A stretch of 64,000 nucleotides of DNA from an uncultured Candidatus Saccharibacteria bacterium (lineage in GTDB: Bacteria; Patescibacteriota; WWE3; 2-01-FULL-39-13), in assembly GCA_965230915.1 (NCBI GenBank), contig OZ246395.1:858431-922430 (forward strand), read 5' to 3'. Shown here piece by piece: positions 3,001 to 34,218 of the stretch (positions within the stretch are counted from its first letter, which is position 1; the number at the start of each line of letters is the position of its first letter). Both the position numbers and the translations under genes were made by a program. The notes beneath the pieces were generated by a model that worked only from the letters and a program-made list of their open reading frames with translations, did not search any database and was not told the DNA's origin.

Positions 3001-6000
3001 AGTTCCATCAAGCCATGCACGTTTAGCATTGGCAGTTTCATCCCATGCTAATCTGAAGTGATACCATTGTCCCGCAGTTGGAGAAAAGCTCTGCCTTAAT
3101 AGTGTCCCTTGAGCTGCTGCTGCATAGATCGCAGCCTCTAAATAACCGTCGGGAGTATGTCTTATAAAAAGTCTGTTCGTATCTCCAAGGTTGGCATAGT
3201 CTACAAGGTACGCACCTTTGGGGTTAGAAGGAGAACCTGAATAATTCGCTTTAAACCAGAAATCAATTGTTCCGTTTTGACGTGCACTGGCGGTTCCGCT
3301 CTGACCTTCAATATTATATCTAGTAGCGATACTGCTACTTGTAATTGCATATGTAGGATAAACCAAAACAGCGCTGCCAATACCATTTACACCAGTCCAG
3401 GATCCGTTATTTCTTAAGTAATTATCCTGGAGCAAAAGCATTCTATCCCCGAACTTAGTTGCGGTTGGAGACCCCGATGGAATCCTTAAGCTTATCTCAT
3501 CATCAGGGGAAGTATATGTAGTACCGGGGGTTGCAGTCCCTGAAGATCCGGTTGCACTGCCTGTAACTGTATATTTACTTTGCGTCGGATCCCATTCAAA
3601 ATCCCAAAGTTCATATTTTGTGTCTCCGTTAGAGGTCGTAATTCCCACAGCACTATCTAGTCCCTTATAGCTTCTAATTCCGGTGGAACTTAAATATATT
3701 TTGTCGCCAATTTCCGGAGGAGTTACCCCGTTTCTCCCACCTTTATGCTTAAGGGTGAAGTTGATATAGCTGCTTGTAAAAGGTGTGCCTGGGGTAGCGG
3801 TGCCAATCGAACCTTGAGTTGAACCTACAACATTCCAAGTTCCCGTATCTGTGAATGTGTCCGAAAAGCCTGTGTCTGTTGAAACTGTGTCGAATAAGGC
3901 TTTCATTCCTTGGGACGCAGTTGCAGAACCTGTATAAAGTCCGAATCGGCCTGCGGTATATGTTGCATTTGTTTCAGTTTCATCCCACGAACCCGGCTCA
4001 CCTGAAGAACAATCTGAAGTCGCCCAGAACTTTGCATTAAGAGTTGTTCCACTAACTTGAGCCTTCAAACAGTACCAGGTGTCTTCACTAAAAGCTTTTG
4101 TGGTCGCTGAACCAATTAAAGTCGGAACACCAGCCAAAGTCGTATACCAGCCGATTGTATTAGCCGCATTCGTTTTTGTTATTAAGGCGGCATAACCATT
4201 TCCGTCAAGGTTCTGCCTCATCATTACTCCAACACGTCTAGATGTTGCATCCGCAACCATATCCATTTTTACGAGCGCACTTATTGTGTAATCGGTGCCA
4301 GTTAGCGAACCATTATGCAAAACAAGGTGCTGAACGTTGGTTGCATTAACATTTAATGTTCCACTATCAATATGCCAAATATATGGAGCTGAAGGTAAAG
4401 CCTGAGCACTTGTATATTTTTGGGTTTCTATCCAGCCAGGAGAGTTTCCATATTCAAGAGTCCAAGTTTCATTTGGATCATAAGAAGCTCCCGGAGTGAC
4501 CTCAGATAGTTTTGCCTCTTGTACGCCTGATGAAACAGCAATAGCCCCCGATGATAATCTTTCTATACCGCTCATTCCTATAGGTGTTGTTTGATTAGCC
4601 GGAGAAGTAGTCCACGATGAAAAACTGGAAATTCTTGCTCTGACCCAATACGCATTAACACTGTTAATCGTGGTTTTTGCCGGAGTGCCTGTTAAGTTAG
4701 AAGGCGTCCAGCTAAGTATTTTTCTACCGGTATTCGAACTAAAAACCGATGTGGGATCAACAGAAACCCAATGTCCGCCATTTAATCTTGAGACTCTGGC
4801 GTTCTGAGCCGTTGTATATCCCGATGGAAGCGGCTCCGCAAAAGTCAAAACAGTCGCAGTTGGAGCTGTTGTTCCAAGTCTTCTATATATAGGACTCGAA
4901 TCATCATCGTCAATCATTACGATTTGGTCTAAACCGAAGTTTGCTCCACCTTCAGGGATTGTTATTGTGTAAGAGTTTCTGGTTATATCAGCAGACAACG
5001 GCATCGAGTAATCGGTTCTAGGCTGATATATATACGAATCTCTAGGTGTAAAACTAATCCAGTTAGAACCATTCCAGAATTCCCATACATAACTTGCAGA
5101 TGCAGACATTAATGTTCCAATATTAAATTCCAGCGAATAGAACATACTGTTGCCTTGATCTGCAAAGTACACTGCATCATTTACTTCAGAATTTGCGCTA
5201 TCACCAAAAATCGTCCATGCAGTACTATTCGCATAGTTAGAAGAATAGCTTACAGATCCACCGTTATAGTTGGCATTGTAAATATTTGTTAGAGGAACCG
5301 TACCGATTTCGGAAACCTCCATATTTGGAGCCGGTAAATCATTTTTACCTCCAGCGGTCACACCTCCGGTCCAGAGTGGCATTTGGGCAGCATCATCAAC
5401 GCTTCCCATTTCTAAAGTAGAAATATTATTATCTGGTGGCAGGTTTGTTCCACCGCCGACTGCAATTTCATCTGTGGGCTGCCAGTTTCCAACGACATTG
5501 TCTTCCACATCAACCCAAGTATTGCCTGCATCTGTAAGGTTGTTCCCCAAATAACCGGTATCAATGTTGCCATCGATATCAACGGCCAAATCGCTCTTGC
5601 TTGTTCTAAAATCGCTCGACCCATCTGCATACAAACTAACTCTTCCGGTACGAAAGTTTGTCTGCGTAGAAGCAGCGATAATACCCGTCATTGTAAAAAC
5701 CCCGGCTCTACGATCTGACCCTGTTGGAAGTTCGGTAGTTATGCCTTTTGCGATATAAGCGCCTTGCGCTGTTGTATAACCGGTAACGGCAGCGGCAGTT
5801 AAAGTGATTGATGTCCCGCTTTGAATAGCGGCAATCACACGGGTTATTGCGACAGAATTATTATCATCAAGAATTATAGTATCTCCAACCGCAAACCCTG
5901 TTGTTGATGTAACAGTAAGTGTCGTGGAAGCGGCAGAATCTACAGTAAGAGTAGTCGAAGCTGCCGGGCTTACATTATCAAAATGTATATCCGAATAAGA

Positions 6001-8484
6001 AGAAGCTGGCAAAGCCGCCCCCGGTTTACCGAATGCGACAGAAGCATTAGACTCTACGACAATTTTGCCCGGGATATTTATTCGATAATGTTTGTTGGCT
6101 GAATTATCTATTCCTAGCTGCGAACCGGGGGTAACTAACGCCGAAACCCATCCGCCGTTAGATGTATATGCCGCAAAGTCGGTTCGGCTACCCGCACCAT
6201 CGCCGACCGCACCTGATACATTGCCAGTATATATAAGACCTGCGTCCCAATTACGGTCAATCGTAACAACGTGGCTCTCTTTAGTCGCCCAATTTATATC
6301 ATTTGATAAATTCGAAGAATCATTAGTATCCGGATCGGATTTTCCATTACCAACAATAACCATATCTCCATCTGCGGGCGCAGTAGTATTGGCATCTCCA
6401 TATGCTACAAAGTAAATATGTCTATTAGATAAAAATGGATATCTCGTTGAAGAAGTTGCAACTGCCTCTGATTTGGCATAAGCAAGAACAACACTCGTAG
6501 TACGAGCCAACAAAGTTGAACCTGTAGGGTTTTGAGCGTGATTTATAGAGGTCCACTTTAAAACATTTCCGTTTGAAGGTGTCCCGGTATTAGAAAGGGT
6601 AACCGAAACTTCAGCTATTTTTGCCGATTGATCGGTAGTGTAAGTTCCGTTTCCAGGACTGCTGTTTAATGTTATTGGTTGACCGACACCACAAGAGCCG
6701 GAAAAACTTGAAATCGTTCTAGTTATTATTGGGGAGTTATTATCATAAATGGCTACAGTTCCGCCTGTTGCAAACTTTGTATTGTCCTCGACGCAAATTA
6801 CAGCCGTAGCATCTGTGTTTGCCTGAACAGTCTGATGTGCACCCTGAATTATTCTTTGCTTCCAAATTGATCTAGCCACGCTGGCATTTTTAGAAGTTGT
6901 ATAACCGGTAACCATTGCAGAAGTTGTAACAATGGCAGGGCCGTCCGAACAGCTCGCATGTGATGAAGTCACAGATGCAATAGTTCTTTGTATTGTAGCT
7001 GTATCTGAATCCCAAATATCAATATATTGATTAGCCGCAAAACCGGTAGTAGAAGCTACACAAATTACCGTTGTTGCGGTTGAATTAGCAGTAAGAGTAG
7101 TTAAAGTTGCCCCATCATCAACCCAAGAAGCACCTGTCGCACCGTCAGTAGCGGTTGTCAGTTTTCTTGCTTGAGTTCCTGATACCGAGCCTACAATGGT
7201 CCAATCGCTTGTGGCCGATGAATAGGTCGCGGTCCAGTGCTCATTTTCAGTCCTTCTTGCTGTAGGCAATCCAACTCCCGCGGAAGAATTAGCGACGACC
7301 ATTCCACCTAATAAAGATGCTGAACCGCCAAGCACACTATTTGAAGTCAACGCAGGCGGCATATTCATAGTAGAGGCACTTGTAGCATCAATATCAATTA
7401 CGCCGAGTGTTCTAACAGTTCCATTTACCGAAGCAAAACCATTAGACTGAGGCGATTCGCCCCATACTCCAAGAGCAGTCGTCGCCGGAGCAGTCGCTCC
7501 CATATTTATAATGCGTATTCCATAATGCTTAGTCGTCGAAACGCCCGGATCAACAGCCAAAGGCGGATCAAATCTAAAATCTAGAGTTGCTCTACCAAAA
7601 TTACCCGGCTGGGAATTTTCGCCAGATGTAGCCTGATTAAATTGCCATACAGTTCTTCTTTCGACAACAGTATCCGAAGGGTAAGTATAAGCACCCTGTG
7701 TGCCTGTTACATAATTCGAACACGATGAAGTACAGCTCGCGGATGGAAACCTTAGAAGCTCAACCACAATATCGCTGTTTGAAAGCGAAGTCGATGTAAT
7801 GTTTTCCATGATTATCTGAACACCGGCTATATTGCCGTCATCTGAAGGCGTAAAACCAATAAATTGTGCCGCCGCATAAGTTGCTGTCGCCGCCATAGGA
7901 ACGTATCCGACTGCCAAGCCTCCGGCAGAACCATCGGTCGTACCACCCGGGTGAATTGGGTTAAAGGTTCCCGATTCGGCATCACCGTTAACACCATCGC
8001 CCGAATATGCCATCGCTGTATACCAGTCACCATCAGTAGATAGGGTCGTACTTTGCTTTGATATTTTAACCGCACCTGTAAACGTCGCCGCAAAAGGCTT
8101 TGGCGCAAATAATTTTGACGATACAAATATAAAAATTGCAACAAAAGCTGGAGCTAAAAATACAATCGCCAAGACAAGAGGTAAATGCCTTCGGACATAC
8201 AAAACAATCTTTGCCGGAGTTAGATTTTTTATATCTCTATAAAAATTTTTAATGAGTTTTTTGTAATCGGTAGTTCTGAAAGTTCTGTATAAATTTTTAG
8301 AAAATATAATTATTTCCTTCTTCGAAAACCTGACATTCTTGATTTTTTTAATAAGGAAAATGATTGATGGAATTATTCCCGAAGTCTTTTCTTTTATAGT
8401 TTTAGGTAAGTTCGCTAATAAGGTCTGCCACACAACCATCTTTCGACGGTAAACTGACTTTCGCCTGGGCAGATTAGTTCGCAT
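1..8484 (-). CDS. Giant cell-surface protein, partial (start at 8484, continues past window start; >2820 codons in window). N-terminal TM anchor, parallel beta-helix-like repeats, LamG/concanavalin-like motif, repeated ~65-aa T/S-rich modules
   Basis: Manual translation of the minus strand from ATG (rc of cat at 8482-8484) stays open to position 1 with protein-like composition. The ORF track shows no >=60-aa ORF in this frame and only short ORFs in the other frames, as expected if one frame runs off the edge. TM helix LVLAIVFLAPAFVAIFIFV near the N-terminus; ISNNIFSINNYGIRLYGNSFFNMSDNVF is a PbH1-like beta-helix repeat; GSIDEFAIFDDDID is a LamG-like motif. Confidence 0.85.
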   Translation of the reverse strand, partial: MRTNLPRRKSVYRRKMVVWQTLLANLPKTIKEKTSGIIPSIIFLIKKIKNVRFSKKEIIIFSKNLYRTFRTTDYKKLIKNFYRDIKNLTPAKIVLYVRRHLPLVLAIVFLAPAFVAIFIFVSSKLFAPKPFAATFTGAVKISKQSTTLSTDGDWYTAMAYSGDGVNGDAESGTFNPIHPGGTTDGSAGGLAVGYVPMAATATYAAAQFIGFTPSDDGNIAGVQIIMENITSTSLSNSDIVVELLRFPSASCTSSCSNYVTGTQGAYTYPSDTVVERRTVWQFNQATSGENSQPGNFGRATLDFRFDPPLAVDPGVSTTKHYGIRIINMGATAPATTALGVWGESPQSNGFASVNGTVRTLGVIDIDATSASTMNMPPALTSNSVLGGSASLLGGMVVANSSAGVGLPTARRTENEHWTATYSSATSDWTIVGSVSGTQARKLTTATDGATGASWVDDGATLTTLTANSTATTVICVASTTGFAANQYIDIWDSDTATIQRTIASVTSSHASCSDGPAIVTTSAMVTGYTTSKNASVARSIWKQRIIQGAHQTVQANTDATAVICVEDNTKFATGGTVAIYDNNSPIITRTISSFSGSCGVGQPITLNSSPGNGTYTTDQSAKIAEVSVTLSNTGTPSNGNVLKWTSINHAQNPTGSTLLARTTSVVLAYAKSEAVATSSTRYPFLSNRHIYFVAYGDANTTAPADGDMVIVGNGKSDPDTNDSSNLSNDINWATKESHVVTIDRNWDAGLIYTGNVSGAVGDGAGSRTDFAAYTSNGGWVSALVTPGSQLGIDNSANKHYRINIPGKIVVESNASVAFGKPGAALPASSYSDIHFDNVSPAASTTLTVDSAASTTLTVTSTTGFAVGDTIILDDNNSVAITRVIAAIQSGTSITLTAAAVTGYTTAQGAYIAKGITTELPTGSDRRAGVFTMTGIIAASTQTNFRTGRVSLYADGSSDFRTSKSDLAVDIDGNIDTGYLGNNLTDAGNTWVDVEDNVVGNWQPTDEIAVGGGTNLPPDNNISTLEMGSVDDAAQMPLWTGGVTAGGKNDLPAPNMEVSEIGTVPLTNIYNANYNGGSVSYSSNYANSTAWTIFGDSANSEVNDAVYFADQGNSMFYSLEFNIGTLMSASASYVWEFWNGSNWISFTPRDSYIYQPRTDYSMPLSADITRNSYTITIPEGGANFGLDQIVMIDDDDSSPIYRRLGTTAPTATVLTFAEPLPSGYTTAQNARVSRLNGGHWVSVDPTSVFSSNTGRKILSWTPSNLTGTPAKTTINSVNAYWVRARISSFSSWTTSPANQTTPIGMSGIERLSSGAIAVSSGVQEAKLSEVTPGASYDPNETWTLEYGNSPGWIETQKYTSAQALPSAPYIWHIDSGTLNVNATNVQHLVLHNGSLTGTDYTISALVKMDMVADATSRRVGVMMRQNLDGNGYAALITKTNAANTIGWYTTLAGVPTLIGSATTKAFSEDTWYCLKAQVSGTTLNAKFWATSDCSSGEPGSWDETETNATYTAGRFGLYTGSATASQGMKALFDTVSTDTGFSDTFTDTGTWNVVGSTQGSIGTATPGTPFTSSYINFTLKHKGGRNGVTPPEIGDKIYLSSTGIRSYKGLDSAVGITTSNGDTKYELWDFEWDPTQSKYTVTGSATGSSGTATPGTTYTSPDDEISLRIPSGSPTATKFGDRMLLLQDNYLRNNGSWTGVNGIGSAVLVYPTYAITSSSIATRYNIEGQSGTASARQNGTIDFWFKANYSGSPSNPKGAYLVDYANLGDTNRLFIRHTPDGYLEAAIYAAAAQGTLLRQSFSPTAGQWYHFRLAWDETANAKRAWLDGTPFTTGQASTVGTRGANAGLVIIGNRYTYDAAFDGSIDEFAIFDDDIDTSAGCNYGSFTPPSSAWTGGETVTCSGSGVAGTNIFRASFDSAMNPREGWVWADYAFGNPSIIFTNGADTGNERIRVITYPQRTRVWVDNTGDKYTPSARIKSGSGFLENAALATLTGWSNNFTYHHKAKRESEDNPTYSPVLNLKRNTHIWSTENISYTGATTGAPINAGLGFGPVAVGLSGLATLDFSDVSMENQYSNFSIVGNPYTSAAVKPTQRVSNSVFYNFYDRAYTVSGKTEGTNYVGAYFVTTNFAAANIGSGYNASTSQNVGIDGSIFMGNRNAYVTVPPAAANGAAAFFSGRLYTVSNSEFYNNGVAGSGTSGALNFSSGVAKVTISNNIFSINNYGIRLYGNSFFNMSDNVFDGHTSSDVVTVGSEYGSGIRFAQTASSIAITDDGSVFGRGLWNESDINTSPNTATFEAESLAQFTGSGTQFLSPVLFGTAGYTNMSRIPEHYFGTTIPGTDIRGTYSTNTKDIVNFTTFGNMRTTGQSLSDTTVRTSGGYSWRMEPTSADVTLDYTAKVVGVATKPLAVTGYIYVNDAYGSSNLPTVTLSGLGMTGDNLTWTASDDPGTWQQFVVSGTPTESALAELVISVKNNFVASDSGTNEVIALPIGNYLPPMFEDVDKSWTPNQWVGYKLKDSNGKIFDIVRNTSQILYLKGTVVPFLRSTTFAATTVGDYVIYEPPYVYIDDVSILSGSVDTGTLDFYADGQPVSPWLSTGLTAEGVWAAQYSNFADTDGSFGQLLQDSLVANYANVSDPSATTTSFNTNLTSATDNFYNDGVIIFTEGQNTGVVRRISDYAGASKTITLDPALPFSPANGNRFAILAATSSSTGGGGGASAADIWSYALRSLTTADLDSGSLATQADIDGLNDITAQQVWEYGTRTITGEVALTSASRSAIWDSACSILNTSGSVGKRVCDNLDAAVSSRSTLTAADVWAEATRTITGITDPA

Positions 8485-8525
8485 ATTTTTTGTTGTATTG
8501 CAGGCTTCTTTCTATATTTAACACA

Positions 8526-16787: not shown

Positions 16788-17865
16788 GAATAATTTTTAT
16801 GATGATGGCCCGGACTTCGGCCCAGATTCACTTGTAAATGAAATAAATTCTTTGGCACATAAATATTATCCCGCCGAAAACCCAAGCGAAATTCCTGAAA
16901 ATAACTTCACTCATCTGACTAGAAATATATACATTCAAGCCGGAGTTCCAGTCTTGGCTTTAACTTACTTAATGTTATTTAGCAATTCGCAAAACACGAG
17001 TGCTCAAAGCACTGTTGAAATTCATGTGGAACCCTCAACAATTGCGAATGCTGCGTGCTATCCGGATGAACTAGAATTCCAAATTACAAATGTAAATGAA
17101 GATAATGCTCCCGGAACAATTTGGGTCAGCTGGAACGACGAAACTTTACAAATTGAAATCTTTGCAGTAGATCAAAACGGTACTGCAATATATCACGTTA
17201 CTGATCCCGACTTGCTCGATGGAATATTGGAAGACTCATGGACAGAAATATTTGCACAATGGATAGGACAATTTGTAGTCAAAGGGTGTGCCACTCCAAC
17301 ACCAACATTCACTGCAACCTCAACGGAAACTCCAACACAAACCTATACAGCTACGGCAACTGAAACATCTACCGAGATGGCTACTTCGACTTCCACGTCT
17401 ACATCTACAGCAACGGCTACTTCGACCTCGACCCCAACTTTTACTGAGACACCTAACCCAACAGCGACAGCAACAGATACGTCAACAGCGACCCAAACTC
17501 CTAGCCCAAGTACAACATCAACTCCCAGCACAACCTCAACGCCAATTCCAAGCTCGACTTCTACATCAACGGAGACTCCAACTGTAACTTCTACAAATAC
17601 ACCAAATGCTACGACAACAGAAACTCCAACTCAAACCTTTACCAGTACTCCATCACCGACACAAACACGCACCAATACCCCTACTAATACTCCTGTTGAA
17701 TTGGTAGAAACTAACACTCCTACTTTTACGCCAGATCCATCGCCTACAGCCCCAACCCATACTGGCTCCCCCACACCAACAGATATAACGCCAAAACCTA
17801 CGGCGACAATAGAACCGACAGCTACGAAACCTAAAATATATGCCCCTGAAATCGAAAAAAACTAG
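16780..17865 (+). CDS. Secreted/surface protein with a long Thr/Pro/Ser-rich mucin-like C-terminal linker (start placed at the ATG overlapping the upstream stop in ATGAGTGA)
   Basis: Hydrophobic N-terminal segment VPVLALTYLMLF; ~170-aa TPT/TST low-complexity tract (17290-17800). The track start at 16732 overlaps the upstream gene, and the internal ATG at 16780 gives a 4-8-nt overlap typical of coupled genes. Confidence 0.65.
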   Translation: MSENNFYDDGPDFGPDSLVNEINSLAHKYYPAENPSEIPENNFTHLTRNIYIQAGVPVLALTYLMLFSNSQNTSAQSTVEIHVEPSTIANAACYPDELEFQITNVNEDNAPGTIWVSWNDETLQIEIFAVDQNGTAIYHVTDPDLLDGILEDSWTEIFAQWIGQFVVKGCATPTPTFTATSTETPTQTYTATATETSTEMATSTSTSTSTATATSTSTPTFTETPNPTATATDTSTATQTPSPSTTSTPSTTSTPIPSSTSTSTETPTVTSTNTPNATTTETPTQTFTSTPSPTQTRTNTPTNTPVELVETNTPTFTPDPSPTAPTHTGSPTPTDITPKPTATIEPTATKPKIYAPEIEKN

Positions 17866-17942
17866 TTGAGGGAGAAAAGGTAGTTAATAACGCTTGATAA
17901 AGGATACTGGTTAAAGTGGTTAATCTGTGAAAATTATATGTC

Positions 17943-17982
17943 TCCGCGGGCTGGACGTTATCAGAACTGAGGTTTTAGAATT
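17943..17982. repeat. att-like direct repeat, copy 1: the 14-nt 3' end of tRNA-Asn (TCCGCGGGCTGGAC) plus 26 nt identical to copy 2. Left boundary of the tRNA-Asn island
   Basis: 40/40 identity with 18645-18684. The first 14-15 nt equal the 3' acceptor/T-arm end of the tRNA at 19228-19302. Confidence 0.85.
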
Positions 17983-17984
17983 TA

Positions 17985-18046
17985 TTGAAGTTGTTTCGAC
18001 TTGACCTTCCCAAATCTCATCAGACACTAAGTGTAACAACTTGCAA
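17985..18046 (-). ncRNA. Type III hammerhead ribozyme (HHR-1), immediately 3' of gene 18131..18532
   Basis: Minus-sense 5'-UUGCAAGUUGUU^ACAC-UUA-GUGU-CUGAUGA-GAUUUG-GGAAGGU-CAAGUC-GAAA-CAACUUCAA. Conserved CUGAUGA and GAAA cores. Stem I is 4 bp with a triloop, stem II 6 bp with loop GGAAGGU, stem III 7 bp including A15.1:U16.1. Cleavage triplet GUU. Two paralogs covary. Confidence 0.85.
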
Positions 18047-18585: not shown

Positions 18586-18623
18586 ATTGTGCATGATTAT
18601 ACTATAAATACAGGTCGATTTAA
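18586..18623 (-). promoter_or_regulatory. Sigma70-type promoter of cassette P1 (TTTAAA-17-TATAAT) with upstream CCCATAGTATTT motif
   Basis: rc of 18586-18591 is TATAAT, rc of 18609-18614 is TTTAAA, spacer 17. Motif CCCCATAGTATTT directly upstream, next to the att repeat. Confidence 0.6.
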
Positions 18624-18644
18624 ATACTATGGGGCATAAATGGG

Positions 18645-18684
18645 TCCGCGGGCTGGACGTTATCAGAACTGAGGTTTTAGAATT
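18645..18684. repeat. att-like direct repeat, copy 2 (identical 40 nt), separating cassettes P1 and P2
   Basis: TCCGCGGGCTGGACGTTATCAGAACTGAGGTTTTAGAATT is identical to 17943-17982, 703 bp away. Confidence 0.85.
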
Positions 18685-18694
18685 AGTTAATTGG

Positions 18695-18760
18695 AAATAA
18701 AAAAACCGCCTCATGATTTTGATTGTCGTAATGACTTTCGCGTCATAAAGCGGGTTAATC
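18695..18760 (-). terminator. Terminator-like structured region 3' of cassette gene P2 (nested hairpins, then UUUUUUUAUUU), where P1 has a hammerhead instead
   Basis: Minus-sense CCGCUUUAUGACGCGAAAGUCAUUACGAC...CAUGAGGCGGUUUUUUUAUUU; the inner AUGAC-GCGAAA-GUCAU hairpin sits inside a longer imperfect stem. Confidence 0.4.
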
Positions 18761-19186: not shown

Positions 19187-19215
19187 ATTTTAACAGTTTA
19201 CGACAAGCCTGTCAA
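19187..19215 (-). promoter_or_regulatory. Consensus sigma70 promoter (TTGACA-17-TAAAAT) immediately 3' of tRNA-Asn, reading into P2
   Basis: rc of 19210-19215 is TTGACA, rc of 19187-19192 is TAAAAT, spacer 17. Preceded by CCTATAGTG. Confidence 0.65.
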
Positions 19216-19227
19216 CACTATAGGATA

Positions 19228-23623: not shown

Positions 23624-23935
23624 TTAGAAAGCATATTTGCAAACACCCATTTGGTCGGGATAAGTCGGTTCGGGATAAACACATTTTTGTCCAATCGGAC
23701 AACTTTTACCTGTGAAACCTCCACATTTAATTTCTGATGGCATTAGCACATTTTTATCTGCAAAATTTAGCTGATAGAAAAAAATAACGATAATTCCGAG
23801 GGTCATCAATATTCCTAATAACAACAAAAAGGATTGTGTAGCGTTGTAGGTTTCTTTAGCCATATTATAGGATTCCCAATGAATAATTTGTTCGCGTCTA
23901 TATTTATTGTATAGCGGTATTAATATAAGCGTCAA
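23624..23935 (-). CDS. Small membrane protein with Cys-rich C-terminus (likely starts at internal MAKETY..., ~80 aa)
   Basis: One TM helix (LLLLGILMTLGIIVIFF) then CGGFTGKSCPIGQKCVYPEPTYPDQMGVC with 5 Cys. Confidence 0.45.
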   Translation of the reverse strand: MTLILIPLYNKYRREQIIHWESYNMAKETYNATQSFLLLLGILMTLGIIVIFFYQLNFADKNVLMPSEIKCGGFTGKSCPIGQKCVYPEPTYPDQMGVCKYAF

Positions 23936-23948
23936 TAAAACAGAAAAA

Positions 23949-23973
23949 GGCGGAGTTAATCTCCGCCTTTTTT
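23949..23973 (-). terminator. rpoD terminator (GGCGGAG-TTAAT-CTCCGCC flanked by A/T tracts, bidirectional type)
   Basis: Hairpin directly after the rpoD stop; minus-sense U-tract UUUUUCUGUUUUAUU. Confidence 0.75.
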
Positions 23974-30652: not shown

Positions 30653-31855
30653 CTACAAATCCTCAATAGCTGAAACCTCGATATTTAAACCCCTAGAGGC
30701 GACCATACTTTTTGCTTCATCAATTCTATCTTTTGGTACAAAAATAATTCGAATCCCTTCGATCGGAACACCATCTTTTAAACAAATCTCAGATTTATAG
30801 TCACTCTGTGGAATAATAACTTCAGAGGTAATTCCAGAATATTCTCCGGTAGTTTTATCTTGCTGTCTCCAGCTAACATCGCTGCCTGTCTGGATATCAG
30901 CCCCCACAAAATATAAAACAGGAAAGCTTTCTCTGATAAGCTGTTCGTGTTCTTTTTCTTTGTCATTTTTATCCGGTTTTTGTAAAAAAGCTAAGGTGTC
31001 TTGTAAATCTCTGATTTTTATTTGTATCGACTCGTAAAAAACATTTTCTTCACCCATTTTTTGTGCGCGTTCAGTAAACTCTCTTAAATCCCTTCTAATT
31101 GATTCTTCTGAAACACCCCCGTCACCTCTTTTAGCATATCCTACTGCATCTTTATAGTCATTCAACTTAGCTAAACTTATGTATTTATTATTTAAATTTG
31201 CACTCCCAAAAACGCCTTCCCCGGAAGCGATCGGCATTTTGTCACGAAGAAATTCTTGAGGCCTTAAACCATGATCAAGAACACCTTGTAATGATGCGCT
31301 GGTTGAACCATGCGCGCCAAAAACCCCATTTTCAAAGATGGATAAAGCTAAGTCTGGGTTATCAGCATACAACTCTGCATATAGCTGGCGATCTTCAAGA
31401 AAATCTGTATAGTTCCATTTACCTAATCTTTCTTCAGGGCTTACAGAACGGCCCAATAATTCGCCATCAAAGACAATTTTATTTATAGCTTCCAGTCTTC
31501 TTCTTTTCTCTTCTTCATTAATCGGTAAATATTCAAGTTTAGCCAAACAACTTTGATAAGAATTAAATAAATTTTGATAACCCCAACCAGCAATGAACTG
31601 GTCAACTTCTGAAAGATTGCTCATAAACTCATCTTTTAGGCCTTCTTCGTCTGGCTGTTCTGTTGATTGTGGAACTTCTTGAGGTTGTGGCTTTTGCTCT
31701 TGGGTTATCGAATAGATACCACTATGGGTATTAATTAGGTTTGGATTAATACTAAAATAGCCCTTTTCATCGCCGGCTTGATCGGACAATTTAAATTCTT
31801 CAGGTGTAGGATCATTTATGCCTTCTATAGCATAAATCGAGTCTGAGCTTGGCAT
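30653..31855 (-). CDS. Hypothetical 400-aa protein abutting the left att repeat of the tRNA-Arg island
   Basis: Long ORF, AT-rich like the host; no recognisable motifs; ATG 27 nt downstream (minus sense) of the att fragment, with no SD. Confidence 0.65.
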   Translation of the reverse strand: MPSSDSIYAIEGINDPTPEEFKLSDQAGDEKGYFSINPNLINTHSGIYSITQEQKPQPQEVPQSTEQPDEEGLKDEFMSNLSEVDQFIAGWGYQNLFNSYQSCLAKLEYLPINEEEKRRRLEAINKIVFDGELLGRSVSPEERLGKWNYTDFLEDRQLYAELYADNPDLALSIFENGVFGAHGSTSASLQGVLDHGLRPQEFLRDKMPIASGEGVFGSANLNNKYISLAKLNDYKDAVGYAKRGDGGVSEESIRRDLREFTERAQKMGEENVFYESIQIKIRDLQDTLAFLQKPDKNDKEKEHEQLIRESFPVLYFVGADIQTGSDVSWRQQDKTTGEYSGITSEVIIPQSDYKSEICLKDGVPIEGIRIIFVPKDRIDEAKSMVASRGLNIEVSAIEDL

Positions 31856-31881: not shown

Positions 31882-31894
31882 TGGTGCACCCAAG
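31882..31894. repeat. att-like direct repeat: 13-nt copy of the tRNA-Arg 3' end (TGGTGCACCCAAG); left boundary of the tRNA-Arg island
   Basis: Identical to 34142-34154 (the 3' end of the tRNA at 34142-34218). Confidence 0.7.
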
Positions 31895-31944
31895 TGATGT
31901 TAATTGGAATCGGGTTTTTGAATTTATATTGAAATTTTAGGAAA

Positions 31945-31998
31945 GTAGTTTCGACTTGATCTTCCCAAGTCTCATCAGGGACTATGTCCGACTAGAAC
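31945..31998 (-). ncRNA. Type III hammerhead ribozyme (HHR-2), 3' of gene 32105..32845
   Basis: Minus-sense 5'-GUUCUAGUC^GGAC-AUA-GUCC-CUGAUGA-GACUUG-GGAAGAU-CAAGUC-GAAA-CUACU. Canonical GUC cleavage triplet. Stem I and II covary with HHR-1 and HHR-3. Confidence 0.85.
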
Positions 31999-32104: not shown

Positions 32105-32845
32105 CTAGGCAGACTTCTCAATCCTCTTGAGTGCCAAAGCCTTCTGGCCAAATGGATTGACTTCCAACTGCTCATTATACTTGGGCAAGGCGTTTATTAG
32201 AGGCAAATGCTGATCCTCCATATATCCAAGCCCTATAAAACGATCCGCCAAAGCCTCATCGCGAAGATACATTCCCCGAGAATGAATCGCCTGCCTAAAC
32301 AGGGCAATATCATCATGACTGAGAGCTTCAACATCTGAATTCTCGAGGAGAAATCCCCACTTTTTAGCGAAACCTTGAAGGCCTTTTGCATCCATAGACG
32401 AAATCGCCTGATGTGAGTATTTAACTCTTAGGCCGGCCACGAAATCAGCGAATGGCATGTACCAAAACTCTTCAGTTCGTAAACGAACTTCTTCTGGTTC
32501 CCATTCATAACCTGTGGCAAAAATACCTAGAGCCACAACTCGATCATTCAGTTCTTCAGTCCACCCGCGGTGGCGGATAGTTTCGCGAAGATAAGGCGTG
32601 TCCTCGATCCCCGAAATATCTTCCTCCGTCACATCAAAGAGCCAACCCTGCAGGTACTGCAATAGGCTGACCTCCGTTGTTCCGAACATCATTAATCCGG
32701 TCAGCCCACCATTGGCAGAGTGCGCCTTGTTCGTTGGCCGAGCAGGTATACTGGGAACTGCTTCCTGTGCGACTTGCTCTTCGACCTTTGAAAAAGGAAA
32801 CAAATTAACAACAAACGATACGAAGGTGTTGATAATGTTTTGCAT
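32105..32845 (-). CDS. Hypothetical 246-aa protein, GC-rich cassette gene P3
   Basis: SD AGGAGA 10 nt before the ATG; followed by HHR-2. Confidence 0.7.
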   Translation of the reverse strand: MQNIINTFVSFVVNLFPFSKVEEQVAQEAVPSIPARPTNKAHSANGGLTGLMMFGTTEVSLLQYLQGWLFDVTEEDISGIEDTPYLRETIRHRGWTEELNDRVVALGIFATGYEWEPEEVRLRTEEFWYMPFADFVAGLRVKYSHQAISSMDAKGLQGFAKKWGFLLENSDVEALSHDDIALFRQAIHSRGMYLRDEALADRFIGLGYMEDQHLPLINALPKYNEQLEVNPFGQKALALKRIEKSA

Positions 32846-32881
32846 GGTAGAAGTTTCTCCTGCTTACTGAAAGTTTTTATA

Positions 32882-32925
32882 TTGCTCGAAGTAACTTTCG
32901 ATTACTCAAAAACTAATTCGAGCAA
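32882..32925. repeat. Inverted repeat TTGCTCGAA-(26 nt)-TTCGAGCAA between cassettes P4 and P3
   Basis: Perfect 9-bp arms read directly; lies between HHR-3 and the P3 start. Confidence 0.45.
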
Positions 32926-32953
32926 TATATTTGTAGATCAATTTTTAATGTAC

Positions 32954-33010
32954 AAAACTGTTTTCGATCTGAGCTTCCCAGATCTCATCAGGCGCTATGC
33001 GCGAACAGCG
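32954..33010 (-). ncRNA. Type III hammerhead ribozyme (HHR-3), ~270 nt 3' of gene 33281..33838
   Basis: Minus-sense 5'-CGCUGUUC^GCGC-AUA-GCGC-CUGAUGA-GAUCUG-GGAAGCU-CAGAUC-GAAA-ACAGUUUU. Stem I GCGC/GCGC and stem II GAUCUG/CAGAUC; both covary against the paralogs. Confidence 0.85.
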
Positions 33011-33280
33011 GGCAAAAGTGAAGCGGAAAGCAAAAGATTAGATAATGATCGAAATGATCATCAAATTCTCATGCTTTAAAAACATGCTTCACTGCCCGTC
33101 TGGCAAACTTTGAAACGAATCCAATGTAGAATTCCCTGAGCTAGTATTTGACACTTTAAGCTATTCCTAGGTAAGTATCTTTCGATCTTACACACTATCA
33201 ATAGCGCCGTACCTTGCGGTCTTGGCAGTCTTGAGCTTTTCATCGGGCTCGTGTTGGATTTACAAACTTCTTACTACCAC

Positions 33281-33838
33281 CTACTTGGGTTCGTATATCC
33301 ACTCGATGTGGTCGAATACGAATGGGCGCGGCGCTTCAACAGAGACGATGGCTTTTAGGCCAGCCTCTTCGATTTTCGCCTTTGGATTGGCGAAGGAGAT
33401 GATCTCCTGCAAAGCGCTTTCCCTCGTCCCATCACGGCCTTCCTGGTGATACCAGACAGGAATTTCCTTCGTCTGAGGACCACTCGGCATAGCCGAAGGA
33501 ACAGAAACCACGACACCCATCCGCGGAAGCGGAACTAGATCTCTCGCGAAATCAGCGGAGGTAAAACCTTCCCATGGAAGTCGTACTAAATCCTTCACAC
33601 CTTCCTGCCAAACCACTACTTTCAGTAGTGCCGATGCCAACGGCGCCGGTACATTCTGAAACAACAAAACTGCATCCTTCTCGACAGCCTTTTTTGCCAA
33701 ATCCAAAAGGACTGGCTTTGTCTCCTCGCCCGTTGCGGGGAAGGTGACATTGATGGTTTCGACAACCTCAACTTGGAGTGTGCCGAAGTCTGGGGCGTGC
33801 CGACCAATAACAATAGCGCGAATCGTTGCATTTTGCAT
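33281..33838 (-). CDS. Hypothetical 185-aa protein, GC-rich cassette gene P4
   Basis: RBS GAAAGGG; ~250-nt leader from a consensus promoter next to tRNA-Arg; followed by HHR-3. Confidence 0.7.
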   Translation of the reverse strand: MQNATIRAIVIGRHAPDFGTLQVEVVETINVTFPATGEETKPVLLDLAKKAVEKDAVLLFQNVPAPLASALLKVVVWQEGVKDLVRLPWEGFTSADFARDLVPLPRMGVVVSVPSAMPSGPQTKEIPVWYHQEGRDGTRESALQEIISFANPKAKIEEAGLKAIVSVEAPRPFVFDHIEWIYEPK

Positions 33839-34095
33839 GGTGCTTTCAACCCTTTCAAGATTGAAACTTACATCAGTTTCTAAGCTCCCATTGGAGTTAG
33901 CTTCAGATCACCTGAAGAAACAACCTACGTTTTTCCATCGTAAGCTGATTCCTCAGGCAATCTTCAATTAGTTTGCCAAATTTTTAATGTACTTTTTGAG
34001 ACTTTTTGTGGGGTATAGCCTTTAGGGCCTTGCCGTTAAAAAAGCTCAGAAATCAATGGACTTTTTGATATCCGAACCTTTCAACTTAATGGCTA

Positions 34096-34124
34096 CATTA
34101 TATTACGAAAAGGCTAGCCTGTCA
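34096..34124 (-). promoter_or_regulatory. Perfect consensus sigma70 promoter (TTGACA-17-TATAAT) immediately 3' of tRNA-Arg, reading into the island
   Basis: rc of 34119-34124 is TTGACA, rc of 34096-34101 is TATAAT; preceded by CCTATAGTA. Confidence 0.7.
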
Positions 34125-34141
34125 ATACTATAGGCTAGTGT

Positions 34142-34218
34142 GGTGCACCCAAGAGGATTCGAACCTCTGGCCTCAACTTCCGCAAAGTTGCGCTCTATCC
34201 AGCTGAGCTATGGGTGCT
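34142..34218 (-). tRNA. tRNA-Arg (anticodon GCG), CCA encoded
   Basis: rc gives GCACCCA-TA-GCTC-AGCTGGATA-GAGC-G-CAACT-TTGCGGA-AGTTG-AGGCC-AGAGG-TTCGAAT-CCTCT-TGGGTGC-A-CCA. Arg-type D and T arms; anticodon loop UUGCGGA. Confidence 0.85.

What the first reader, a model, noticed from the sequence alone, without database searches (positions are those of the whole stretch)
32954..33010. Hammerhead ribozyme copy 3, inside the tRNA-Arg island between cassette genes P4 and P3
Minus sense: 5'-CGCUGUUC^GCGC-AUA-GCGC-CUGAUGA-GAUCUG-GGAAGCU-CAGAUC-GAAA-ACAGUUUU-3'. Stem II is GAUCUG/CAGAUC, where two base pairs differ compensatorily from the copy 1 and 2 stem II strands (GAUUUG and GACUUG, each pairing with CAAGUC). 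Stem III is 5-6 bp. The cleavage triplet is UUC, cutting between 33003 and 33002. This copy is not followed by an att repeat. It is followed by a 9-bp inverted repeat (32882-32925) and the next cassette gene, so the ribozyme can separate two cassette transcripts within one array, acting as a transcript insulator.
Basis: seen in the sequence. Interest (0 to 1): 0.8.

Follow-up and report, generated by a model that had tools for sequence, protein, structure and literature searches.

The report
Self-cleaving hammerhead ribozyme between two genes
This is very probably a genuine hammerhead self-cutting RNA, one of three in this window and part of a previously unannotated subfamily found almost only in the tiny "candidate phyla radiation" bacteria, where it most likely trims the end of one gene's message and separates it from the next, a role already proposed for bacterial hammerheads.

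Summary
Window 33010-32954 (minus strand) encodes a complete type III hammerhead. Every catalytic-core nucleotide is present and cleavage is predicted after C33003. A generic hammerhead descriptor finds 3 sites in the window and none in 300 shuffles. A genome scan found 19 relatives, almost all in Patescibacteria/CPR MAGs, and covariation supports all three stems. Rfam's type III model scores it far below its gathering threshold (20.6 against 48.5 bits), so the subfamily goes unannotated.

Copy 3 lies in the spacer between a 185-aa and a 246-aa orphan gene. Both sit inside a 2.26-kb island bounded by tRNA-Arg and a 13-nt repeat of its 3' end. The island has one consensus promoter, and no promoter or terminator was found between the two genes. 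A ~100-nt hairpin ends 3-6 nt before the cut. A 23-bp hairpin and a Shine-Dalgarno sequence follow the ribozyme.

Family-wide, the ribozyme always follows a co-oriented gene. It is best read as a hairpin-plus-ribozyme 3'-end and intercistronic processing module. The insulator idea is plausible but untested, and it matches a role proposed in 2011. "Two cassettes" is not shown. Verdict: new member of a known kind, moderate interest.

The parts
32954..33010 (-). Hammerhead ribozyme copy 3 (type III). The cut is predicted between C33003 and G33002.
   Evidence: Sequence; Rfam RF00008 end-to-end alignment at 20.6 bits; model R1 at 73.2 bits; MFE fold equals the hammerhead junction; descriptor 3 hits against 0 in 300 shuffles.
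33006..33102 (-). Long imperfect hairpin in the 3' UTR of the 185-aa gene. It ends 3-6 nt before the scissile bond, and its basal CAG/CUG pairs overlap stem III.
   Evidence: Fold of the 110 nt upstream of the cut: -39 kcal/mol, z -6.06, 0 of 200 shuffles. Competition with stem III appears in the 163-nt fold.
32878..32929 (-). 23-bp hairpin between the ribozyme and the ribosome binding site of the 246-aa gene.
   Evidence: the repeat finder I3; fold -23.5 kcal/mol, z -7.28.
32857..32861 (-). AGGAG Shine-Dalgarno sequence, 11 nt before the AUG of the 246-aa gene.
   Evidence: Sequence.
32940..32953 (-). 14-mer GTACATTAAAAATT directly after the ribozyme. A second copy lies in the leader of the 185-aa gene.
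   Evidence: Two exact copies in the window against 0.16 expected; first seen.
33979..33992 (-). Second copy of the 14-mer GTACATTAAAAATT, in the leader of the 185-aa gene. This block is conserved in L027.
33281..33838 (-). Upstream gene (185 aa, no Pfam match, five homologues).
32105..32845 (-). Downstream gene (246 aa, orphan).
34097..34125 (-). Island promoter TTGACA-N17-TATAAT (12/12). It marks the left edge of the portable unit.
   Evidence: Homology with L027 begins here.
34141..34217 (-). tRNA-Arg (GCG), the integration target.
31943..31997 (-). Hammerhead copy 2 (cut after C31990), the terminal element of the island.
   Evidence: Rfam 28.3 bits; R1 67.6 bits; architecture.
31882..31894 (-). 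13-nt direct repeat of the tRNA-Arg 3' end (CTTGGGTGCACCA), the right boundary of the island.
17986..18046 (-). Hammerhead copy 1 (cut after U18035), at the end of the second tRNA-Asn cassette.
17935..17982 (-). 48-nt att-type repeat (arm plus tRNA-Asn 3' end) after copy 1. Its twin lies at 18637-18684.
   Evidence: the repeat finder D3 and D4; sequence.
18695..18752 (-). Hairpin followed by U7 (terminator-like) at the end of the first tRNA-Asn cassette, in the position where the second cassette has the ribozyme.
   Evidence: Fold -15.1 kcal/mol, z -3.6; sequence.

Best explanation
Copy 3 is an active type III hammerhead in the 435-nt spacer of a two-gene transcript. That transcript starts at the consensus promoter next to tRNA-Arg.

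As RNA polymerase passes, the RNA folds and cuts itself after C33003. The upstream message (185-aa gene) is released with a 2',3'-cyclic phosphate just 3-6 nt beyond a ~100-nt hairpin. This 3' end resembles one made by a terminator. The downstream message (246-aa gene) starts with a 5'-OH buried in stem I, followed by the ribozyme body, a 23-bp hairpin and its Shine-Dalgarno sequence.

The hairpin-plus-hammerhead unit is a gene-terminal 3'-end and intercistronic processing module. It recurs in Patescibacteria/CPR genomes. In this window it closes small promoter-led gene units inserted at tRNA genes.

Shown: motif, core, covariation, family distribution, genomic anatomy. Inferred: co-transcription of the two genes, cleavage itself, and the effects on RNA stability and translation.
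For: - Core and helices are complete.
- A generic descriptor finds 3 sites in the window and 0 in 300 shuffles.
- The genome scan gave 18 loci where about one chance match was expected, 17 of them with real hammerheads. Sixteen of the 18 titles name Patescibacteria-group taxa. 19 of the 20 matches have the full architecture.
- Covariation over 20 sequences: stems I and II are 100% paired, 89 cells changed on both sides against 29 in shuffles, and slid controls are 31-39% paired.
- Exactly three copies in the window score 67-73 bits.
- The scan found no same-strand promoter or terminator between the two genes.
- All 24 copies have a co-oriented ORF ending upstream, usually within 0-150 nt. What lies downstream varies: a gene, a promoter plus gene, a terminator, or a convergent gene.
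- Strongly structured RNA ends 3-8 nt before each window cut site: z -6.1, -4.2, -6.3.
- The pre-ribozyme hairpin is conserved, with compensatory changes, in high-GC relatives.
- The ribozyme-less cassette at tRNA-Asn has a hairpin plus U7 in the same position.
- Clustered bacterial hammerheads have been shown to process polycistronic RNAs in vitro and in vivo (PMC3088659).
Against: - There are no expression or cleavage data for this organism.
- Rfam's curated threshold is not reached.
- In the thermodynamic fold of copy 3 with its upstream hairpin, stem III is not formed, because three of its nucleotides pair with the hairpin base. Cleavage could therefore be slow or conditional.
- Stem I is only 4 bp with a 3-nt loop, and I could not identify a loop-loop tertiary contact.
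- Covariation sequences were collected with a pattern that fixed loop II and the outer stem II pairs, and several loci are close homologues. The independent sample is smaller than 20.
- Weak promoters below the scan threshold cannot be excluded.
Confidence: 0.7

Rival explanations
1. The selected function is maturation of the downstream message. The ribozyme removes the upstream RNA, so the 246-aa gene always has the same structured 5' leader (stem I, ribozyme body, 23-bp hairpin, exposed SD). This would be a natural counterpart of the RiboJ insulator, and it is the first reader's reading.
For: The ribozyme, 23-bp hairpin, AGGAG and AUG layout matches the RiboJ design of a hammerhead plus a 23-nt hairpin ahead of the RBS (PMC6206723). 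In several other genomes the ribozyme lies 12-73 nt upstream of housekeeping genes.
Against: In at least five copies nothing co-oriented follows the ribozyme without its own promoter. What follows is a convergent gene (L003, L013, window copy 1), a new promoter (L008a, L012) or a terminator (L006). A downstream-gene function therefore cannot be the common denominator. The conserved partner structure lies upstream of the cut, not downstream.
Confidence: 0.3
2. Copy 3 marks a fossil cassette boundary. The 185-aa unit (promoter, gene, hairpin, ribozyme) was once an independent tRNA-targeting cassette like those at tRNA-Asn. Its att arm and core have since decayed or been deleted. The position of the ribozyme is then historical rather than selected for insulating two genes.
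For: Copies 1 and 2 lie 6-45 nt before an att arm plus tRNA-end repeat. The 185-aa unit occurs in another genome with a different upstream flank, with homology starting at the promoter. The 246-aa gene is an orphan with no relatives. There is faint similarity between the sequences after the three copies.
Against: No tRNA-like repeat follows copy 3. The 246-aa gene has no recognisable promoter of its own, unlike the other units. The L027 contig ends before the ribozyme position, so the right edge of the portable unit is unknown.
Confidence: 0.3
3. Cleavage is conditional. The upstream hairpin competes with stem III, so the fraction cut depends on folding kinetics, translation of the upstream gene, or a bound factor. 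This would tune the ratio or stability of the two messages.
For: The MFE of the 163-nt RNA pairs C-U-G of stem III with the hairpin base and leaves stem III open. Copy 2 has only a 4-bp stem III. A 14-mer is repeated in both leaders of the island and could be a binding site.
Against: In copy 1 the hairpin and an intact hammerhead coexist in the MFE. Nearest-neighbour folding ignores hammerhead tertiary stabilisation. No ligand- or protein-binding element was identified.
Confidence: 0.15
4. The two same-strand ribozymes (copies 3 and 2, 1013 nt apart) excise the 246-aa gene RNA as a unit with 5'-OH and cyclic-phosphate ends. This unit is then ligated into a circular RNA, as in retrozymes and viroid-like agents.
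For: Same-strand pairs 0.7-1.8 kb apart occur in four loci. The end chemistry would suit an RtcB-type ligase (general knowledge).
Against: The two ends cannot re-form a hammerhead stem III in the window, L010 or L011; only the near-identical L008 pair could. The portable DNA unit includes the non-transcribed promoter, which argues against an RNA intermediate. No reverse transcriptase or ligase gene is nearby. Circular or spliced products were looked for and not found for clustered bacterial hammerheads (PMC3088659).
Confidence: 0.05
5. The motif is a chance or decayed hammerhead look-alike with no catalytic activity.
For: It scores below the Rfam gathering threshold. Stem I is very short.
Against: 0 of 300 shuffles contain any complete descriptor match. 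The core is intact in all copies, with compensatory changes in all three stems across CPR genomes.
Confidence: 0.04

Closest known systems
Type III hammerhead ribozymes (Rfam RF00008, clan CL00010)
   Same: Identical catalytic core (CUGAUGA, GAA, A15.1-U16.1, C17). Three helices around the core, with stems I and II capped and stem III open. The Rfam consensus also has a short stem I capped by a uUa triloop.
   Different: Stem I is only 4 bp. Stem II is 6 bp with a GGAAGNU loop. It scores 20-28 bits against a gathering score of 48.5, and Rfam misses every member in eight related loci at E <= 0.5. Its distribution is almost exclusively Patescibacteria/CPR MAGs.
Clustered hammerheads flanking single genes in prophages and integrated elements (Perreault et al. 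2011, PMC3088659)
   Same: Several same-strand ribozymes bracket individual genes whose identity varies. They are associated with integrated foreign DNA. The proposed role is cutting long transcripts into single-gene mRNAs.
   Different: Here the elements are 0.6-2.3 kb, carry no integrase or phage genes and are bounded by tRNA 3'-end repeats. The ribozymes are type III; that paper reports the first natural type II hammerheads among its bacterial examples. Each is coupled to a large upstream hairpin. The same subfamily also occurs between housekeeping genes.
RiboJ synthetic insulator (sTRSV hammerhead plus 23-nt hairpin; PMC6206723)
   Same: A hammerhead that cuts at its own 5' edge, followed by a hairpin and then the ribosome binding site, giving the downstream gene a fixed 5' end.
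   Different: This one is natural rather than engineered. The hairpin has 23 bp (52 nt), not 23 nt. It is placed between two genes rather than after a promoter. Family context favours a role at the 3' end of the upstream gene.
Intrinsic (Rho-independent) terminators
   Same: It occupies the same place at the end of a transcription unit, and the sister cassette uses a hairpin plus U7 there. It leaves the upstream RNA ending just after a stable hairpin.
   Different: The 3' end would be made by RNA self-cleavage, not by polymerase release. Transcription continues, so a downstream gene can still be expressed. There is no U-tract requirement.
Integron gene cassettes and other integrase-less cargo units at tRNA genes
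   Same: Small single-gene units stacked head to tail at a fixed site and bounded by short recombination-site repeats, with no recombinase of their own.
   Different: No attC-type site or IntI was found. The units carry their own consensus promoters. The repeats are tRNA 3' ends plus a ~26-nt arm. Mobility is inferred from repeats and from one relocated homologue, not demonstrated.

Membership tests
Hammerhead ribozyme, type III | Core C3-U4-G5-A6-N7-G8-A9 between stems I and II | tested here: met
   CUGAUGA at 32991-32985. Invariant in all 20 aligned relatives. One further relative, L010b, has the allowed N7 = C.
Hammerhead ribozyme, type III | G12-A13-A14 between stems II and III | tested here: met
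   GAA at 32965-32963. Invariant in alignment A2.
Hammerhead ribozyme, type III | A15.1-U16.1 pair and a non-G nucleotide (H17) at the cleavage site | tested here: met
   A32962 pairs with U33004, and C33003 is position 17. The U-A pair is found in 20 of 20 relatives.
Hammerhead ribozyme, type III | [quoted passage not shown] | tested here: met
   G33002-C32992 and G32984-C32966. Criteria quoted.
Hammerhead ribozyme, type III | Three helices supported by covariation | tested here: met
   Stems I and II are 100% paired, and the four inner pairs of stem III (12-56, 11-57, 10-58, 9-59) are 97.5% paired (78 of 80 cells). Twelve pairs carry changes on both sides. Covariation score is 0.658 against 0.207 in shuffles, and the slid controls are 31-39% paired. 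Caveat: the outer stem II pairs and loop II were fixed by the search pattern.
Hammerhead ribozyme, type III | Type III topology (stems I and II closed by loops, stem III open) | tested here: met
Hammerhead ribozyme, type III | Score at or above the Rfam RF00008 gathering threshold (48.5 bits) | tested here: not met
   20.6 bits for copy 3 and 28.3 bits for copy 2; copy 1 was not reported. The shortfall comes from stem and loop lengths, not from the core.
Hammerhead ribozyme, type III | Loop I - loop II tertiary contact that gives fast cleavage at physiological Mg2+ | tested here: inconclusive
   Loop I is N-U-A with U, A and the closing C-G invariant, although the genome scan did not constrain them. 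No Watson-Crick complementarity or covariation with loop II was seen on inspection of A2.
Hammerhead ribozyme, type III | Site-specific self-cleavage giving 2',3'-cyclic phosphate and 5'-OH ends | not testable with these tools
   Needs in-vitro transcription or end-specific RNA-seq.
Clustered hammerheads of integrated elements (Perreault 2011) | Several same-strand ribozymes flanking single genes of varying identity | tested here: met
   Copies 3 and 2 flank the 246-aa gene. Pairs also occur in L008, L010 and L011. Flanking proteins are unrelated between loci.
Clustered hammerheads of integrated elements (Perreault 2011) | Proximity to integrase or prophage genes | tested here: not met
   No integrase or phage-core Pfam family was found in 40 window ORFs. 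The only phage-related match was a marginal Baseplate_J hit about 19 kb away. tRNA-end direct repeats do indicate site-specific integration.
RiboJ-type ribozyme insulator | The ribozyme cuts at its 5' edge, and a hairpin separates it from the RBS | tested here: met
   The type III cut lies 5' of the ribozyme body, followed by the 23-bp hairpin at 32929-32878 and then AGGAG.
RiboJ-type ribozyme insulator | Expression of the downstream gene becomes independent of upstream sequence | not testable with these tools
   Needs reporter assays.
Retrozyme / viroid-like circular RNA | The two ribozyme-generated ends re-form a hammerhead helix and can be ligated. The unit propagates through RNA. | tested here: not met
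   The stem III strands of copies 3 and 2 are not complementary. The portable unit includes the promoter.
Integron cassette | attC recombination site and an IntI integrase platform | tested here: not met
   The boundaries are tRNA 3'-end repeats with a shared arm. No integrase was found in the window.

The most novel reading that the evidence does not exclude
The hairpin-plus-hammerhead unit is a self-cleaving substitute for an intrinsic terminator. It defines the RNA 3' end of promoter-led, recombinase-less, single-gene cassettes. These cassettes are captured head to tail at tRNA genes in CPR bacteria. That would make an integron-like gene-capture platform whose units carry their own promoter and a ribozyme-made transcript end. 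Orphan genes could then be inserted next to host genes without fusing their transcripts.
Probability: 0.25. Interest if true: 0.7.

Novelty: new member of a known kind. Interest (0 to 1): 0.45.

Why it matters
The biological purpose of most bacterial hammerheads is still open (PMC6765202). This locus offers an unusually clean natural comparison. Sister cassettes at one tRNA end either in a hairpin plus U-tract or in a hairpin plus ribozyme. A third ribozyme sits between two genes with a RiboJ-like leader. Testing these would show whether self-cleavage serves as 3'-end formation, as insulation, or as both.

It also extends hammerheads to the CPR/Patescibacteria. It shows that the curated Rfam model misses this subfamily. 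It points to very small, integrase-less gene units at tRNA genes in organisms whose mobile elements are poorly known.

Tried and rejected
1. Metagenome scan. I mis-specified the pattern, with one N too many between TAG and CTGATGAG. Its single hit (L028, a 5-bp stem I variant) says nothing about abundance.
2. Viral contigs. The core pattern gave 0 hits. A relaxed-loop pattern gave 2 chance hits without stems. The att-arm pattern gave 0. No phage or parent element was found.
3. Strain variation and an empty site. Exact-protein look-ups returned only the same strain. The 246-aa and 400-aa proteins are orphans or nearly so. Contexts of the 185-aa homologues lack the ribozyme or are truncated.
4. 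Organism identity. Cluster look-up gave no names. CPR origin is inferred from the distribution of relatives and from a 945-kb longest contig.
5. RBS masking by the purine-rich stem III 3' strand. This fits L011a but not most loci, where start codons lie 28-160 nt away, so I dropped it as a general mechanism.
6. Hammerhead plus U-tract acting as a terminator. T counts after stem III vary from 1 to 7 of 10, so this is not general.
7. Loop I - loop II Watson-Crick pseudoknot. There is no complementarity or covariation (alignment A2).
8. Circular RNA from ribozyme pairs. The ends are incompatible in three of four loci.
9. Integron-type attC. Not present.
10. A shared protein family next to the ribozyme. 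None was found.

Full report
**1. The observation**

The minus strand of window 33010-32954 reads CGCUGUUC/GCGC-AUA-GCGC-CUGAUGA-GAUCUG-GGAAGCU-CAGAUC-GAA-AACAGUUUU. Every position that defines a hammerhead is present:
- C3-A9 is CUGAUGA (32991-32985).
- G12-A14 is GAA (32965-32963).
- A15.1 (32962) pairs with U16.1 (33004).
- C17 is C33003.
- The pairs next to the core are G33002-C32992 and G32984-C32966.

The isolated 59-nt RNA folds by minimum free energy into exactly this three-way junction.

Rfam's type III model aligns it end to end, but at only 20.6 bits against a gathering score of 48.5. The default scan reports no ribozyme at all.

Two further copies lie on the same strand, at about 18046-17986 and 31997-31943. 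A generic type III descriptor (core, at least 4 bp in each stem, non-G at position 17) finds these three sites and nothing else. It finds nothing in 300 dinucleotide-preserving shuffles of the window.

One correction: the inverted repeat after copy 3 is not 9 bp. It is a 23-bp hairpin at 32929-32878.

**2. Relatives and covariation**

I scanned one genome per species with the pattern CTGATGAG-N4-GGGAAG-N2-C-N4-CGAAA. It returned 18 loci where roughly one chance match was expected. Sixteen of the 18 record titles name Patescibacteria-group taxa (Saccharibacteria, Saccharimonadia, WWE3, CPR3 or "Patescibacteria group"). The other two are labelled Pseudomonadales (L007) and Chloroflexia (L014).

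Of the 20 matches, 19 have the full architecture. This includes stems I and III, which the pattern did not constrain. The Chloroflexia hit is a chance match.

In a 20-sequence alignment:
- Stems I and II are 100% paired, and the four inner pairs of stem III are 97.5% paired.
- 89 cells carry changes on both sides, against 29 in shuffles.
- The covariation score is 0.658 against 0.207.
- Sliding the partners by 1-3 columns drops pairing to 31-39%.

A covariance model built from this alignment finds exactly three copies in the window (67-73 bits). It also finds an extra copy in L010, which the pattern missed because N7 is C.

Limits of this evidence:
- Loop II and the outer stem II pairs were fixed by the pattern.
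- Several loci are close homologues.
- The metagenome scan was mis-specified by me and is uninformative.
- The viral collection holds no member.
- Rfam's model misses all members in eight of these loci at E <= 0.5.
- I found no paper linking hammerheads to CPR, Patescibacteria or Saccharibacteria in the searchable library.

**3. Anatomy of the window loci**

All three copies lie in small islands directly downstream of tRNA genes and on the tRNA strand.

tRNA-Asn (19304-19233) is followed by two units:
- Unit A has a TTGACA-N17-TAAAAT promoter, a 117-aa gene, a hairpin plus U7, and then a 48-nt repeat made of a ~26-nt arm and the last 15 nt of the tRNA.
- Unit B has a promoter, a 133-aa gene, a long hairpin, hammerhead copy 1, and the same 48-nt repeat.

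tRNA-Arg (34217-34141) is followed by, in order:
- a perfect TTGACA-N17-TATAAT promoter;
- a ~240-nt leader;
- the 185-aa gene;
- a 270-nt 3' UTR;
- copy 3;
- the 23-bp hairpin, AGGAG and the 246-aa gene;
- copy 2;
- a related arm and a 13-nt repeat of the tRNA-Arg 3' end at 31894-31882.

The cassette proteins have no Pfam match. The 246-aa protein matches only itself among 5.8 billion sequences. No integrase was found in any of the 40 window ORFs tested.

A 75%-identical homologue of the 185-aa gene sits in another assembly (L027). Homology there starts exactly at the promoter and runs through the leader, gene and 3' UTR. The sequence upstream of the promoter is unrelated and has no tRNA. The promoter-led unit therefore appears to be portable at the DNA level.

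**4. What copy 3 most likely does**

The consensus scan finds no promoter (9/12 or better) and no terminator on the ribozyme strand between the 185-aa stop codon and the 246-aa start codon. The simplest reading is a single transcript with copy 3 in the spacer.

Across all 24 copies, the constant neighbour is a co-oriented ORF ending upstream, usually within 0-150 nt. What follows varies:
- a co-oriented gene, including housekeeping genes such as TsaC-TsaE, Cmk, a class-V aminotransferase, RadC and a NUDIX protein;
- a new near-consensus promoter (L008a, L012);
- an intrinsic terminator (L006);
- a convergent gene (L003, L013, window copy 1).

The 110 nt upstream of each window cut site are unusually structured: z = -6.1, -4.2 and -6.3, with 0 of 200 shuffles in each case. 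A long hairpin ends 3-8 nt before the scissile bond.

High-GC Saccharibacteria loci share a conserved pre-ribozyme hairpin with four compensatory pairs. This rests on only six sequences.

Unit A, which lacks a ribozyme, has a hairpin plus U7 at the same position.

Together these observations favour a hairpin-plus-hammerhead 3'-end module. Cleavage would leave the upstream message ending just past a protective stem-loop with a cyclic phosphate. Polymerase would continue, so a downstream gene can still be expressed. For copy 3, the downstream product would start with a 5'-OH base-paired in stem I, followed by the ribozyme body, the 23-bp hairpin and the SD. This closely resembles the engineered RiboJ insulator.

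Cleavage, co-transcription and any effect on stability are inferences.

One complication is that the base of the upstream hairpin competes with three nucleotides of stem III in the thermodynamic fold. Cleavage of copy 3 could therefore be slow or conditional. In copy 1 the two structures coexist.

**5. Comparison with what is known**

Perreault et al. 2011 reported hundreds of bacterial hammerheads, many near integrase and prophage genes. Several often flank single genes of varying identity. The authors proposed that long transcripts are processed into single-gene mRNAs and showed cleavage in vitro and in vivo (PMC3088659). A 2019 review still lists this as a suggestion needing more work (PMC6765202).

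The following points are new here:
- the host lineage (CPR);
- a subfamily that the curated model misses;
- the tight coupling to an upstream hairpin;
- the setting in 0.6-2.3-kb integrase-less units bounded by tRNA-end repeats.

Membership in the hammerhead class is met on every structural criterion I could test. It fails only the Rfam score threshold, and catalysis itself cannot be tested here.

Circular-RNA, integron and chance explanations were examined and are unlikely.

**6. Verdict**

Copy 3 is very probably a genuine type III hammerhead and a new member of a known kind. Interest is moderate (0.45): the class and the proposed role are known, but the locus is a good test bed for the open question of what bacterial hammerheads are for. 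It also hints at a small-cassette capture system in CPR bacteria (probability about 0.25).

Noticed in passing
window 32940-32953 and 33979-33992 (minus strand): The 14-mer GTACATTAAAAATT occurs exactly twice in 64 kb (0.16 expected), both times in the tRNA-Arg island. One copy abuts hammerhead copy 3. The other lies in the leader of the 185-aa gene, where the block is conserved in L027. It could be a binding or processing site, or a remnant of an att arm.
   Followed up: partly
window 19206-19227 and 34116-34137: Both tRNAs are followed at once by a shared ~20-nt motif, CCTATAGTrTTGACAGGCT, which contains the -35 box of near-perfect sigma-70 promoters. A CCCATAGT variant starts the second tRNA-Asn cassette. 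It also appears about 130 nt upstream of the ribozyme in high-GC Saccharibacteria loci (L011, L015, L017, L018).
   Followed up: partly
window 33839-34096 (minus strand) compared with L027 880-1182: The ~240-nt leader of the 185-aa gene is conserved between two genomes. It includes a hairpin (CUUCAG...CUGAAG) whose loop differs. No Rfam family matches it. It may be a structured regulatory leader.
   Followed up: no
window 33076-33243 (minus strand): A 55-aa ORF lies in the 3' UTR of the 185-aa gene. All five differences from L027 in its first 21 codons are non-synonymous, so it is probably not coding.
   Followed up: partly
window 18615-18642 and 31813-31840: The left end of the second tRNA-Asn cassette (CATTTATGCC..CATAGT..AAATCGA) recurs in inverted orientation inside the first codons of the 400-aa gene, just beyond the tRNA-Arg repeat. 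This is unexplained.
   Followed up: no
window 30653-31855 (minus strand): The 400-aa gene starts about 25 nt after the tRNA-Arg end repeat. It has no Pfam match and a single distant homologue, so the variable region may extend beyond the recognised island boundary.
   Followed up: partly
window 1-8511 (minus strand): An open frame of at least 2837 codons runs off the start of the window. It is a giant protein of the kind common in small-genome episymbiotic bacteria.
   Followed up: no
window 17293-17678 (plus strand): Degenerate tandem coding repeats rich in Thr and Pro lie in a 377-aa ORF. This ORF converges on the tRNA-Asn island.
   Followed up: no
L016 3306-3364 (plus strand): L016 carries a second type III hammerhead of a different subtype (6-bp stem I, G-U at 10.1-11.1; Rfam 26.3 bits). 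It lies 3.3 kb upstream of the subfamily member on the same strand, and together they bracket three genes.
   Followed up: partly
L011, L015, L005 (one MAG), plus L017, L018, L010: In high-GC Saccharibacteria the hammerhead is the 3' end of a ~190-nt conserved non-coding unit. The unit is repeated at several places in one genome, with up to 98% identity over 65 nt, like a dispersed intergenic repeat.
   Followed up: partly
L008 1300-1440: Four TACCCAC repeats and two perfect DnaA boxes (TTATCCACA) lie just upstream of the two promoter-ORF-hammerhead units. The array may sit next to a replication origin.
   Followed up: no
L006 5780-5805 (minus strand): A canonical intrinsic terminator (GACCCAUAAAGGGUC followed by U7) lies 15 nt after the hammerhead. 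In that locus, cleavage would remove the terminator hairpin from the upstream message.
   Followed up: no
window 23911-23973: The best non-tRNA Rfam hits (STnc40, STnc390, MicC, L20 leader, all below threshold) all fall on a single terminator hairpin downstream of the sigma-70 gene. They are not sRNA genes.
   Followed up: no
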